Assembly (NCBI GenBank): GCA_030264375.1
Contig: JASCQW010000142.1
Coordinates: forward strand, 12,291,196-12,355,195
From: Carcharhinus longimanus
Lineage: Eukaryota
Direction of reading: 5' to 3'
Length of the DNA: 64,000 bases
The position numbers are program-made. This document shows positions 9,001-12,000 of the stretch, in pieces (position 1 is the first letter of the stretch; each line of letters starts with the position of its first letter).

Positions 9001-12000
9001 AAGTGACTCCCACTCATTAACTTTCTTCACCTTGCTGAGGAAAACTCCTTGGTGCCTCACTGCATTTACTCACACAGCTAACTGGGTTTAGGGATGAAAA
9101 GCTGCTGTGTGGAAATGTTACTTTCAGCCAAATCTCAGTCACAATCTGTACTTTCTACAGTGTGCCACACTAGTACCTGTGTTACAAAAGGCATCATTTT
9201 TAGGTTAAACACATGACAACTGTACAATAGAAACCAGTTCAGTAATACTACATTCCAAATTTTTCCAGATAAGTGGAGGCTTTTCACTACAGCATATTAA
9301 TTAAACAAGAAAGTCAAAGTGCAGCACCATCTGTGACTCATCACCATGGCAGCTGTAAATTCAAAATGCAGAGGGGGATGGGGGAAAAGAGGCAGTTTTA
9401 AGGAATTAAGCAAAGCCTTTTGGTTCAGAAAAATGAAAGTGATTAGCTTCAGGAATGTCATACAATTAACCAGATTTTGCAGCATCACAATAGCCAGTTT
9501 TGCAGAGAATTTTAAAACAAAGGTGTTTAACTTTTAAATATACTTGTAAGACTTGCGATTTAAGACTGACAGTTGATGGAGACATTCAAGTATCAAAAAT
9601 CTTCAGTGATGTTGAGTGTCTGAGTTAACTTTCTTTTAAAAAAAAATCTTTAGGAACAAATGATGTCCTTCATTTCTTTTTCATAGATACTCTGCATCTG
9701 TCAACTCACTCCCAACAAACTCAAAACATGGATAATATACTGCAGCTTTGAAAGTTATATTGGGAAAGTCAGACAAATGTCAGGCTATGTGATCTTGTGC
9801 AGAAAGTTATTACAGTATTTGCATTCCCACAGACCACAGCAGAAATGCTTATGACCAAACACTGTCCTATTCACATTGTTGTATTAAATGAAGTACAAGC
9901 TGAAAAGGGAATTATGGTGTTTTTTGATCAACTACAGCCAAAGTACAACATACAAATAAGTAATTAACTATGAAGCTCCAACAATTGGAAGGAGCAAGCA
10001 AGTCTTAGTGTAAACAAAGGCACCAGACAGACTGGATTTTGTTAAACACTACATCATATTTCATGCATGGAGGGTTGGCACTTTTTTGGCACATTTTATA
10101 ATGTTTTATAACCCTGAAAATGTAAAGAGTCAATTACAGAACTAGAAATAAGAGTTAAGGATGTTCAATATAAATTGCAGTAAGTCAGTTTGATGAATGA
10201 TCACACTTTTGATGGGAGATTAATTTGTACAATCTAAGAAAACAGTATGTACTTTCAAAATACAGTATATGATGCTCTCACACACAACTCCTTATGTAAC
10301 TAGCTGAGGCGAACTAAAAATTTGGGGTCTTTCCTTTCTGATTCAGAGTAGATATATTGGAAACTTAGAGGAAAAACTGAAGCCTCATTGCATGTGTCAA
10401 TACTACTTCCACTAGAGAAATTACTATTACGCAATCATTCACCCACCTCGCATCAAATTTCAACTTGAGTTTCACTCAATTGAAGAAACAGGTTTGAGTA
10501 GTTCTTTTAAACATTAGCTTGGAACATTTTTATACAACTCCAACTGCCTTGTAAGTCCAACTTTTCTTGCCAATTCTTTTCTGCAGCTGTTCTATTTCTC
10601 ACTTTTCCTTCCATCCCCACATGGTCTTGTTGGGTCTTGCTATAAGTCTGTACACATTAGGGTCTCACCAACTCCTACCCCCTTACTCACAAACAGTGAT
10701 CTTTCTGCCATTGTACTGGGGCAGGGGTAAGAACTGAGCTTAAGCAAGCTGTTCCACCTTGCATGAGCAGGACATACAAGCCAGGAAATCCATGTGCACG
10801 CCCTTCTTCCAGGAGTCATAGGACTGCAGCTTGGAGGAGAGGTGCTGCCTTTTCTTCTCCTCCCTAACCAACCACCACTGCAGAGACCAGTTAATTCAAC
10901 AATTAGATTGAACTGTTGACTTTCCTACTAGGAATAGGTGAGCTACTCACTAGATAAACTTAGAGGTATTGATGGAGCATTTGTGCTATATTGATTTTAT
11001 AAATACGAACATACTGTATCAGAATCCCCATCTAATCAAACATTCATTTGATTCCCCTTGACAAATAAAGCAAAAGCATTTCCAATGAGCAGGCCACCTT
11101 TGAAATTTGTAGCAAACATCCTTAATCCTTTGACAATTGTTCATCTGAGCTGTTCGATGTAGTTTTTACATCTTTCACTACACGATGCACAGTAAAACAA
11201 TGTTGACTGATGCATAGTAATGACTAGCATCAAATACCTTAAATAGCCTCCTGACACTTGGATCAAAGAGACAGTATCTGTTTTCCTGGGCCTGCACACA
11301 GTCTATTTCATAAAGCATTAAAAAAAAGTCAAAGAAAAACATCTCAAAGCACATGATATTATTTCCTTTTGAAAGTAGCAGCCCATCAAAAATGACAATT
11401 TCTGTACCAAGCTTGTCATCTTTAACAAAGGATCTCTGCAGGAATGTAGTGACAATTTAAAGCCATTCTGAAATGTCTGTGCACGCAAGACCTTTTAAAC
11501 AGAGGCTGTCCCTTTAAAAAAGGCAAAGTTTTACCCAAGAAGAAAATGTAGACTATAATGTACCATATTTGACACTTCAGAAGTAGAACATTTTCTTTGA
11601 ATTCATTTTAATGGCAATTATGGCTAGCAGTGGGTTCCAACAAATGAAGAGAATGGCAGATGTGTACTGTTTGACTTTCCATGACTTTTTGTGTCACGTG
11701 CCGTGGTGAATGACACAGTTCCATGAAGAGGTGACACAAGTGCATAAGGCCAAGTGCATTATCCTGAGGACTCCATTCTTCCTGCCGTAGACAGCCCATG
11801 ATTCTTTTCACCATGTTCATTTTTCCCAGATTCCTGAAAACACGGCCAACCCAGAAAATTAAAAGGTCTCGAGTGGACGAAGGAGAGATGAAGGTTGGTG
11901 TTTTCTTTCCCCACCTCCTCCAAGCATTGGTGGGCTTTCTTAACTATAGTGTCGGTATGGGGGGGACCTCGAATTGGATTCAATTGGAATTTGGTTTTTG

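What the first reader, a model, noticed from the sequence alone, without database searches (positions are those of the whole stretch)
11482..11671. A spliced-mRNA junction sits in genomic DNA inside the gene's own 3' region
Seen: 11652-11671 equals 18832-18851 (19/20 nt) and is fused with no extra bases to a copy of 16210-16379 (2 mismatches in 170 nt). The intron is missing precisely at GT..AG. Inference: precise intron loss implies an RNA template. Unlike a normal retrocopy, this copy runs on into ~7 kb of UTR-like sequence ending at a genomic-looking AATAAA plus T-rich element, with no poly(A) tract or TSD that I can find. It could be (a) a local cDNA-templated repair or gene-conversion event accompanying insertion of 11672-16109, or (b) a young 5'-truncated retrocopy from another locus collapsed into this scaffold.
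Basis: partly seen in the sequence, partly recalled or inferred. Interest (0 to 1): 0.72.

Follow-up and report, generated by a model that had tools for sequence, protein, structure and literature searches.

The report
Truncated FRS2-like retrocopy at contig edge
An intron-less copy of the tail end of a shark signalling-adaptor gene does look like DNA copied back from spliced RNA, but its odd place inside the gene's own tail most likely comes from a draft assembly that merged two near-identical copies.

Summary
11482-11651 equals 16210-16379 (168/170) and 11652-11671 equals 18832-18851 (19/20), with 16380-18831 missing exactly at GT..AG.

The gene is an elasmobranch FRS2-like adaptor on the minus strand. 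The junction is a real splice. Six of seven closest orthologue models end in ...STDLPFSSFVGTHC, which is the reading across this junction. An RNA template is therefore well supported.

The "original" 170 nt begin at the first base after a 100-N gap (16110-16209). The duplication is cut by a contig edge, and its length is only a lower bound. Only one version of the 6.9-kb repeat-free 3' UTR is assembled, at 4600-11481. The position "inside the gene's own 3' region" rests on that gap alone.

The copy differs from the parent at 3 of 190 bases. It keeps only 20 nt of the upstream exon and abuts a truncated dispersed repeat. I found no poly(A), no target-site duplication and no other half of that repeat.

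Best reading (about 0.55): a young, 5'-truncated processed retrocopy whose UTR body was collapsed with the parent's UTR in a short-read draft. A true in-situ cDNA-templated event is not excluded (about 0.08). No reads or vertebrate genomes were available to test this. Interest is low to moderate.

The parts
11652..11671 (-). 20-nt copy of the last 20 nt of FRS2-like coding exon 5 (the 5' end of the intron-less copy)
   Evidence: 19/20 to 18832-18851. Fused without extra bases to the exon-6 copy.
11482..11651 (-). Copy of the first 170 nt of the last exon (exon 6). Holds the 9-codon tail FSSFVGTHC plus the stop, then the start of the 3' UTR.
   Evidence: 168/170 to 16210-16379. The contiguous window reading is ...NSTHLPFSSFVGTHC*. 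Orthologue C-termini align across it (residues 498-519 of P0072).
4598..11481 (-). Continuation of the last exon: the only assembled version of the roughly 6.9-kb 3' UTR, ending at an AATAAA hexamer (4603-4598) followed by T-rich sequence and no poly(A)
   Evidence: 0% cover by intra-window repeats, against 19-45% in the flanks. Hexamer scan; sequence.
11672..16109 (.). Flank X: unrelated, repeat-bearing DNA next to the copy's 5' end. It holds a truncated copy of a dispersed repeat on the minus strand (about 11686-11920), a LINE 3' fragment (12403-13100, +) and a tRNA-like SINE (13549-13797).
   Evidence: No similarity to exon 5 or the intron except a SINE. Repeat family, LINE piece. GC is 0.405, like the neighbours.
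16110..16209 (.). 100-N assembly gap. It is the only link between the contig that holds the copy (3265-16109) and the contig that holds the parental exon and intron (16210-20010).
   Evidence: Not filled or inferred.
16210..16379 (-). Parental last exon, first 170 nt only. It breaks off at the contig edge, 58 nt after its last private base (16268).
16380..18831 (-). Parental last intron (2452 nt, GT..AG). Its donor overlaps the ancestral stop codon.
   Evidence: Orthologue C-termini.
18832..19784 (-). Parental coding exon 5 (the large C-terminal exon of FRS2-like)
   Evidence: tblastn of P0072 residues 194-510, 92% identity. Protein searches.

Best explanation
The window is a draft scaffold of an elasmobranch. 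It carries an FRS2-like gene (a fibroblast growth factor receptor substrate 2 paralogue) on the minus strand.

Shown: 11482-11671 is DNA derived from the gene's spliced mRNA.

Inferred: a transcript was reverse-transcribed from its 3' end. Copying stopped 20 nt upstream of the last exon-exon junction. The product was inserted into a copy of a dispersed repeat, giving a dead-on-arrival, 5'-truncated processed retrocopy made almost entirely of 3' UTR. The retrocopy has since diverged by about 1.6%.

Inferred: the short-read assembler could not keep the two roughly 7-kb near-identical UTRs apart. One contig (3265-16109) therefore carries the retrocopy's 5' flank and junction, the single merged UTR, and probably the parent's 3' flank. 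That would explain why there is no poly(A), no target-site duplication and no second half of the interrupted repeat. The parental contig (16210-20010) ends just inside exon 6 and was tied to the first contig across a placeholder gap.

The retrocopy's true locus is unknown.
For: The junction is a real splice. 6 of the 7 closest hits fetched end ...STDLPFSSFVGTHC (7 of the 120 listed were fetched). That is the window's reading across 11652|11651 and across 18832|16379. The donor and acceptor look canonical.

It is a separate diverged copy, not the same molecule: 3 differences in 190 nt.

It is 5'-truncated: similarity ends at 11671/11672.

There is a contig-edge signature. The parental copy starts at the first base after the gap, 58 nt beyond its last private base. 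No second copy of 4600-11481 exists in the window. Other gaps in this scaffold also sit at repeats, or have overlapping edges.

The 5' flank is ordinary repeat DNA. 29 of 31 relatives of the flank ORF stop aligning at 11671, and the well-matched part of the alignments ends near 11686, while the relatives run on 17-124 residues further. This is what insertion into an older repeat copy would look like.

The other half of that repeat, a poly(A) tract and a target-site duplication are all absent from the contig. That is expected if the contig leaves the retrocopy's path inside the merged UTR.

A LINE relic in the window matches LINE-1 ORF2p (E 1.6e-6), so L1-type machinery has existed in this genome.

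Retrocopies were reported in all 579 vertebrate assemblies of the VGP data freeze, with lower counts outside mammals (PMC13320880, passages read).
Against: No poly(A), target-site duplication or second UTR copy is seen, so the hallmarks of a canonical retrocopy are missing as assembled.

If the 1.6% divergence held over all 7 kb, it would give about 110 differences. Many assemblers would then keep the copies apart, so collapse is plausible but not shown.

No read depth, read pairs or other assembly could be examined.

The scaffold does place the copy next to its parent, in the same orientation.

The LINE-1-like relic is degenerate and says nothing about activity at the time of the event.
Confidence: 0.55

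Rival explanations
1. Pure artefact: no such junction exists in the genome. A chimeric contig end was built from RNA-derived or chimeric reads (cDNA carry-over, a library chimera or a gap-closing error) and joined to the true UTR.
For: The feature sits in a gap-rich draft with 10 N runs in 64 kb. Its counterpart lies exactly at a contig edge. There is no poly(A) or target-site duplication. cDNA carry-over into DNA libraries is a documented problem (PMC8709999, listing and abstract start only). RNA-seq-guided scaffolding that inserts 100 Ns exists and has been used for an elasmobranch assembly (PMC5834899 and PMC10620051, passages). I do not know whether it was used here.
Against: cDNA reads would carry exon 5 far beyond 20 nt. 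Here the sequence turns into 4.4 kb of ordinary repeat-bearing genomic DNA. The 3 differences in 190 nt from the same individual's gene are too many for consensus error or typical heterozygosity (the heterozygosity level is my general knowledge). RNA-based scaffolders order contigs and do not write RNA letters into them.
Confidence: 0.15
2. In-situ event: the scaffold is correct. The last exon or 3' UTR of the gene was broken and repaired with its own spliced transcript or cDNA as a patch, together with 4.4 kb or more of filler DNA. This left exon6[1..170 or more] - X - exon5[last 20] - exon6 - UTR at one locus.
For: Scaffold order and orientation place the copy 4.5 kb downstream in the same orientation. 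With a single UTR, no poly(A) or target-site duplication would be expected. Coding capacity would be untouched, because the stop lies 30 nt into exon 6.
Against: The adjacency rests only on a 100-N gap, and a collapsed UTR would yield the same scaffold. The duplication boundary coinciding with a contig edge is unexplained unless the assembler met a repeat. The mechanism is rare and undocumented in vertebrate germ lines to my knowledge; I recall this and ran no literature search aimed at it. X has no feature marking it as an insertion. Its end is a truncated dispersed repeat, like any genomic target.
Confidence: 0.08
3. Template-switch chimera, a variant of the retrocopy reading. Reverse transcriptase copying FRS2-like mRNA jumped, 20 nt past the junction, onto RNA of the dispersed repeat that now forms 11686-11920. 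The repeat piece and the gene piece would then have entered the genome together.
For: The repeat remnant lies on the same strand and ends within about 15 nt of the copy's 5' end. The repeat's continuation is nowhere in the window.
Against: About 15 nt between the two (11672-11686) match neither. The repeat's nature, and whether this is its sense strand, are unknown (Pfam and Rfam give nothing). Plain insertion into an old repeat copy is far more common. The missing half is equally explained by the collapse.
Confidence: 0.1

Closest known systems
5'-truncated processed pseudogene / retrocopy (LINE-mediated retroposition of a cellular mRNA)
   Same: Exact loss of an intron at a verified splice junction. 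[quoted passage not shown] It is non-coding on arrival, slightly diverged from its parent, and flanked by ordinary repeat DNA.
   Different: The contig as assembled has no poly(A) tail and no target-site duplication, and the scaffold places it next to its parent. I attribute all three to assembly collapse, but that is an inference.
Collapsed near-identical duplicate in a short-read draft assembly
   Same: One assembled copy of a long sequence with two different entries. One entry ends as a short contig just past its last distinguishing base, joined over a placeholder gap. Other gaps of the scaffold also sit at repeats.
   Different: Collapse is not shown directly, because no depth or read data were available.
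cDNA- or RNA-templated repair and intron loss by recombination with reverse transcripts
   Same: A spliced-transcript sequence written into the gene's own locus, biased to the 3' end.
   Different: Those events replace the intron-bearing segment. Here the intron-bearing copy is still present, the patch is preceded by 4.4 kb of unrelated DNA, and its being at the same locus is unproven.
L1 template-switch chimeric retrocopies
   Same: Two unrelated RNA-derived pieces joined head to tail on one strand, with the 3' piece 5'-truncated.
   Different: No poly(A) at the internal joint, the 5' piece is not identified as an RNA, and about 15 nt at the joint are unassigned.

Membership tests
[quoted passage not shown] | Ungapped match across a true exon-exon junction of the parent | tested here: met
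   190 nt ungapped, 187 identical. The junction is confirmed as a real splice by 6 of 7 orthologue C-termini and by GT..AG.
Retrocopy in the broad, operational sense | [quoted passage not shown] | tested here: inconclusive
   The copy continues into 6.9 kb of repeat-free UTR-like sequence. The parent's own UTR beyond 170 nt is not assembled, so there is nothing to compare it with.
Retrocopy in the broad, operational sense | A locus distinct from the parent | not testable with these tools
   The only link is a 100-N gap. No reads or vertebrate genome collection were at hand.
Canonical LINE-1-type processed pseudogene | Poly(A) tail at the 3' end | tested here: not met
   None after any of 11 hexamers, and no A/T run longer than 10. 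This holds for the contig as assembled; the 3' end may belong to the parent.
Canonical LINE-1-type processed pseudogene | Target-site duplication flanking the insert | tested here: not met
   No shared word of 8 nt or more between 11672-11711 and 3265-4620. The 9-mer found in 3265-11481 is within chance: 99 of 200 shuffles reach 9 or more. The same caveat applies.
Canonical LINE-1-type processed pseudogene | A LINE of the poly(A)-recognising (L1) type in the genome | tested here: inconclusive
   One degenerate relic at 47622-48120(-) matches LINE-1 ORF2p (E 1.6e-6 and 0.36). The RVT_1 match is below Pfam's cut-off.
cDNA/RNA-templated repair at the gene's own locus | The copy and the parental exon are contiguous on one DNA molecule | not testable with these tools
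   Gap 16110-16209
FRS2 family adaptor (parent gene) | Full-length collinear similarity to named FRS2/FRS2-like proteins | tested here: met
   Five coding exons align to residues 1-510 of a 519-aa zebra shark FRS2-like model at 82-97% identity. Exon 5 alone gives E 2.2e-200. No Pfam domain was found in exon 5. The PTB-domain exons were not scanned here.

The most novel reading that the evidence does not exclude
The scaffold is right. A vertebrate germ-line gene carries, in its own last exon, a patch copied from its own spliced transcript (20 nt of the upstream exon fused to the last exon) next to 4.4 kb of captured filler DNA. That would be a fossil of transcript-templated break repair at the source locus.
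Probability: 0.07. Interest if true: 0.75.

Novelty: new member of a known kind. Interest (0 to 1): 0.25.

Why it matters
If my reading is right, the finding is ordinary: one more dead retrocopy, plus a warning that this part of the scaffold is not collinear with the genome.

It matters in practice for annotation. A gene model built here would give FRS2-like an 11-kb or longer 3' UTR with an internal duplicate.

It also shows that an "impossible" structure next to a gap should first be read as a collapse.

The copy has some biological value. It is an independent genomic record that the spliced form with the 9-residue tail was made in the germ line of this lineage.

Only the unlikely in-situ reading would be of wide interest.

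Tried and rejected
I used stop-free ORFs instead.
- My first guess at the gene, a GAB-family adaptor recalled from memory, was wrong. The searches name FRS2.
- A10 at 7029-7038 as a possible retrocopy end was rejected. Reading, there is no hexamer before it and no flank repeat after it.
- Segmental (DNA-level) duplication with a chance deletion was rejected. The deletion has exact splice-site ends and matches annotated protein ends.
- X as a diverged copy of the intron was rejected. Only a SINE is shared, and it is out of register.
- An empty-site test using other copies of the flank found no DNA-level copy in the window. At protein level a repeat family was found, but its continuation is absent.
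- An independent sighting of the X|copy joint in the protein collection found no near-identical hit (best 76% identity over 46% of the query). This is uninformative, since such an ORF need not have been called.
- Contig ends as a k-mer signature: the 58-nt overhang at 16210 is suggestive, but the other gap edges (70-73 nt of shared repeat) cannot be compared. I dropped it as evidence.
- The Rfam scan of the whole window at gathering score and of 11400-12600 at E up to 1 gave nothing but one chance hit.
- GC content of X against its neighbours showed no contrast.
- A genome-wide search for further copies was not possible.

Full report
**What the window is**

The window has 39.8% G+C, a CpG observed/expected ratio of 0.27 and ten N runs. 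It is dense in tRNA-like SINEs and LINE fragments. This is a vertebrate draft scaffold.

The 335-codon open frame at 18831-19835(-) finds FRS2 proteins. The best hit is [quoted passage not shown] of the zebra shark: 92% identity over 95% of the query, E 2.2e-200. A sawfish comes next at 86% and the elephant fish at 80%.

I therefore take the window for an elasmobranch, not for human.

tblastn of the zebra shark protein places the coding exons on the minus strand at about:
- 30159-30088
- 27038-26841
- 24639-24475
- 22080-21898
- 19784-18832

The last exon starts at 16379.

I searched with exon 5 alone. The reading across the junction was taken from the window's own contiguous copy.

**The observation**

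It is correct.
- 11482-11651 matches 16210-16379 at 168 of 170 bases, without gaps.
- 11652-11671 matches 18832-18851 at 19 of 20.
- The 20-mer has no chance expectation: 0 of 100 shuffles gave a match.
- From 11672 the similarity is gone.
- On the gene strand the missing 2452 nt begin ATT|GTAAGC and end with a pyrimidine tract and CAG|CTCTTC.

**Is the junction a real splice?**

Yes. The copy reads ...NSTHLPFSSFVGTHC* in one piece.

Of the seven best hits I fetched (7 of 120 listed, 485 found), six end ...STDLPFSSFVGTHC. These are a shark, four rays and one unnamed sequence. The seventh, the elephant fish, ends ...STDLPL.

Five further relatives that I chose all end ...STDLP[L/M] (5 of 5). 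They are white shark FRS2a, coelacanth, lungfish, Xenopus and bowfin.

In the window, exon 5 read straight on also gives ...STDLPL followed by TAA, and that stop overlaps the donor. The last intron is thus an elasmobranch feature whose donor sits on the ancestral stop codon. The copy carries its spliced product. An RNA template is the only reasonable source.

Base 16210 is the first base after a 100-N gap. The "original" does not end after 170 nt; its contig does, 58 nt after its last private base at 16268.

The rest of the last exon exists only once in the window, as 4600-11481. That stretch is 6.9 kb with 0% cover by intra-window repeats, against 19-45% in its flanks. It ends at an AATAAA followed by T-rich sequence.

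The scaffold therefore holds one UTR with two different entries:
- the intron plus exon-6 start (contig 16210-20010);
- X plus 20 nt plus exon-6 start (contig 3265-16109).

The claim that the copy lies inside the gene's own 3' region rests on the gap alone.

Other gaps of this scaffold sit at repeats or have overlapping edges: 19938-20007 = 56638-56707, about equal to 31702-31774, and 28518-28548 = 28649-28679.

Placeholder gaps of 100 N are what at least one RNA-seq scaffolder writes. That tool has been used on an elasmobranch assembly (PMC5834899 and PMC10620051, passages read). I do not know how this assembly was made.

**The copy itself**

- It differs from the parent at 3 of 190 bases, so it is a second, slightly diverged sequence rather than the same molecule.
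- It keeps only 20 nt of exon 5.
- No poly(A) follows any of the 11 hexamers between 11481 and 3265, and no A/T run exceeds 10. The A10 at 7029-7038 has no signal before it.
- No target-site duplication was found.

**The 5' flank**

X (11672-16109) has the G+C content of its surroundings. It shares only a SINE with the intron, and that SINE is out of register.

My last protein search used the 111-codon frame 11611-11943(-), which runs across X, the 20-mer and the exon-6 start. I hoped to find the same joint in independent data. It found no near-identical protein.

It found 31 relatives at 46-76% identity, almost all unnamed. These represent a dispersed repeat. In 29 of 31 the alignment stops at 11671. 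In the five alignments I read, the well-matched part ends near 11686. Two alignments run on weakly.

The relatives themselves continue for 17-124 residues. The 23 continuations of at least 25 residues match nothing in the window (best E 0.019).

So the copy abuts a truncated repeat whose other half is not in the contig. Pfam and Rfam do not name this repeat.

**Best reading (about 0.55)**

This is a real, young, 5'-truncated processed retrocopy, inserted into an older repeat copy at an unknown locus. Its UTR body was merged with the parent's UTR during assembly.

One assumption then covers every oddity: the contig edge, the single UTR, the missing poly(A), the missing duplication and the missing half of the repeat.

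Two lines of support:
- A LINE relic that matches LINE-1 ORF2p lies in the window.
- Retrocopies were found in all 579 vertebrate assemblies of one survey, at lower counts outside mammals (PMC13320880, passages). Its supplementary table with per-species counts was not open to me.

Against it: collapse is inferred, not shown. A 1.6% divergence over 7 kb might have been enough to keep the copies apart.

**Rivals**

- Pure artefact (about 0.15). It does not explain why exon 5 stops after 20 nt, nor the three differences.
- Template-switch chimera (about 0.10). This is a variant that concerns only the 5' joint.
- In-situ transcript-templated patch (about 0.08). It has no support beyond the gap-spanning adjacency, but nothing here excludes it.

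**Comparison and novelty**

The feature works like a processed pseudogene. It meets the operational definition, an ungapped match over a true junction.

As assembled, it fails the poly(A) and duplication tests of the canonical LINE-1 type. I therefore file it as an RNA-derived copy in the broad sense, not as a proven canonical one.

It is a new member of a known kind, and the striking context is probably an assembly effect. Interest 0.25.

**What stayed unchecked**

- Reads, depth and any other vertebrate genome.
- The metagenome and viral contig collections, which are closed.
- The bacterial and archaeal genome collection, which I did not use because it is irrelevant.
- Supplementary files of papers.

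**Virus-like stretches (description only)**

One ORF at the window's start, 62-295(-), matches the RNase H-like domain of reverse transcriptases (RT_RNaseH_2, E 1.1e-7, above the cut-off). None of the 8 other ORFs tested in 1-2986 matches anything above cut-off.

It is a short pol remnant cut by the window edge. I saw no stop or frameshift inside the 68-residue match.

Overall, 1 of the 40 ORFs scanned passed a Pfam cut-off. These 40 came from the 155 stop-free ORFs of at least 70 codons.

Noticed in passing
window 18826-18834 and 16350-16379 (minus strand): The donor of the last FRS2-like intron overlaps the ancestral stop codon. Unspliced, the protein ends ...STDLPL like the elephant fish, coelacanth, lungfish, frog and bowfin relatives. 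Spliced, it gains FSSFVGTHC, which is identical in all 6 elasmobranch models fetched. This looks like a 3' UTR turned intron in elasmobranchs, with a perfectly conserved 9-residue tail of unknown role.
   Followed up: partly
window 1-600 (minus strand; recognisable part 62-295): Remnant of an LTR-retroelement/retrovirus-like pol: one RNase H-like domain match (RT_RNaseH_2, E 1.1e-7). It is cut by the window edge, and 8 neighbouring ORFs have no further recognisable domain. Described only.
   Followed up: partly
window 47622-48518 (minus strand): Degenerate LINE reverse-transcriptase relic. It is collinear with LINE-1 ORF2p of the PDB (E 1.6e-6 and 0.36) and has a sub-threshold RVT_1 match. It is spread over at least two reading frames, so it has at least one frameshift and at least one stop.
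   Followed up: partly
window 19938-20010, 31702-31776, 56637-56707; also 28518-28548 / 28649-28679: Three of the five 100-N gaps have the same roughly 70-nt LINE-tail sequence at their left edge (96-100% identical). A fourth gap has 31 nt repeated on both of its sides. The contigs end inside repeats, and at least one gap hides an overlap rather than missing sequence.
   Followed up: no
window 11686-11920 (minus strand): A copy of a dispersed repeat whose spurious or real ORF has relatives at up to 76% identity in many unnamed contigs. One relative is a salmon protein that its source names as WDFY3-like. Pfam and Rfam do not recognise it.
   Followed up: partly
window 12403-13100 (+), 3599-4215 (+), 55254-55361, 56808-56897, 44962-45108, 42581-42719: Several copies of one LINE 3' region, seen by translated similarity. 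A tRNA-like SINE is also present in at least ten copies (example 28867-29192).
   Followed up: no
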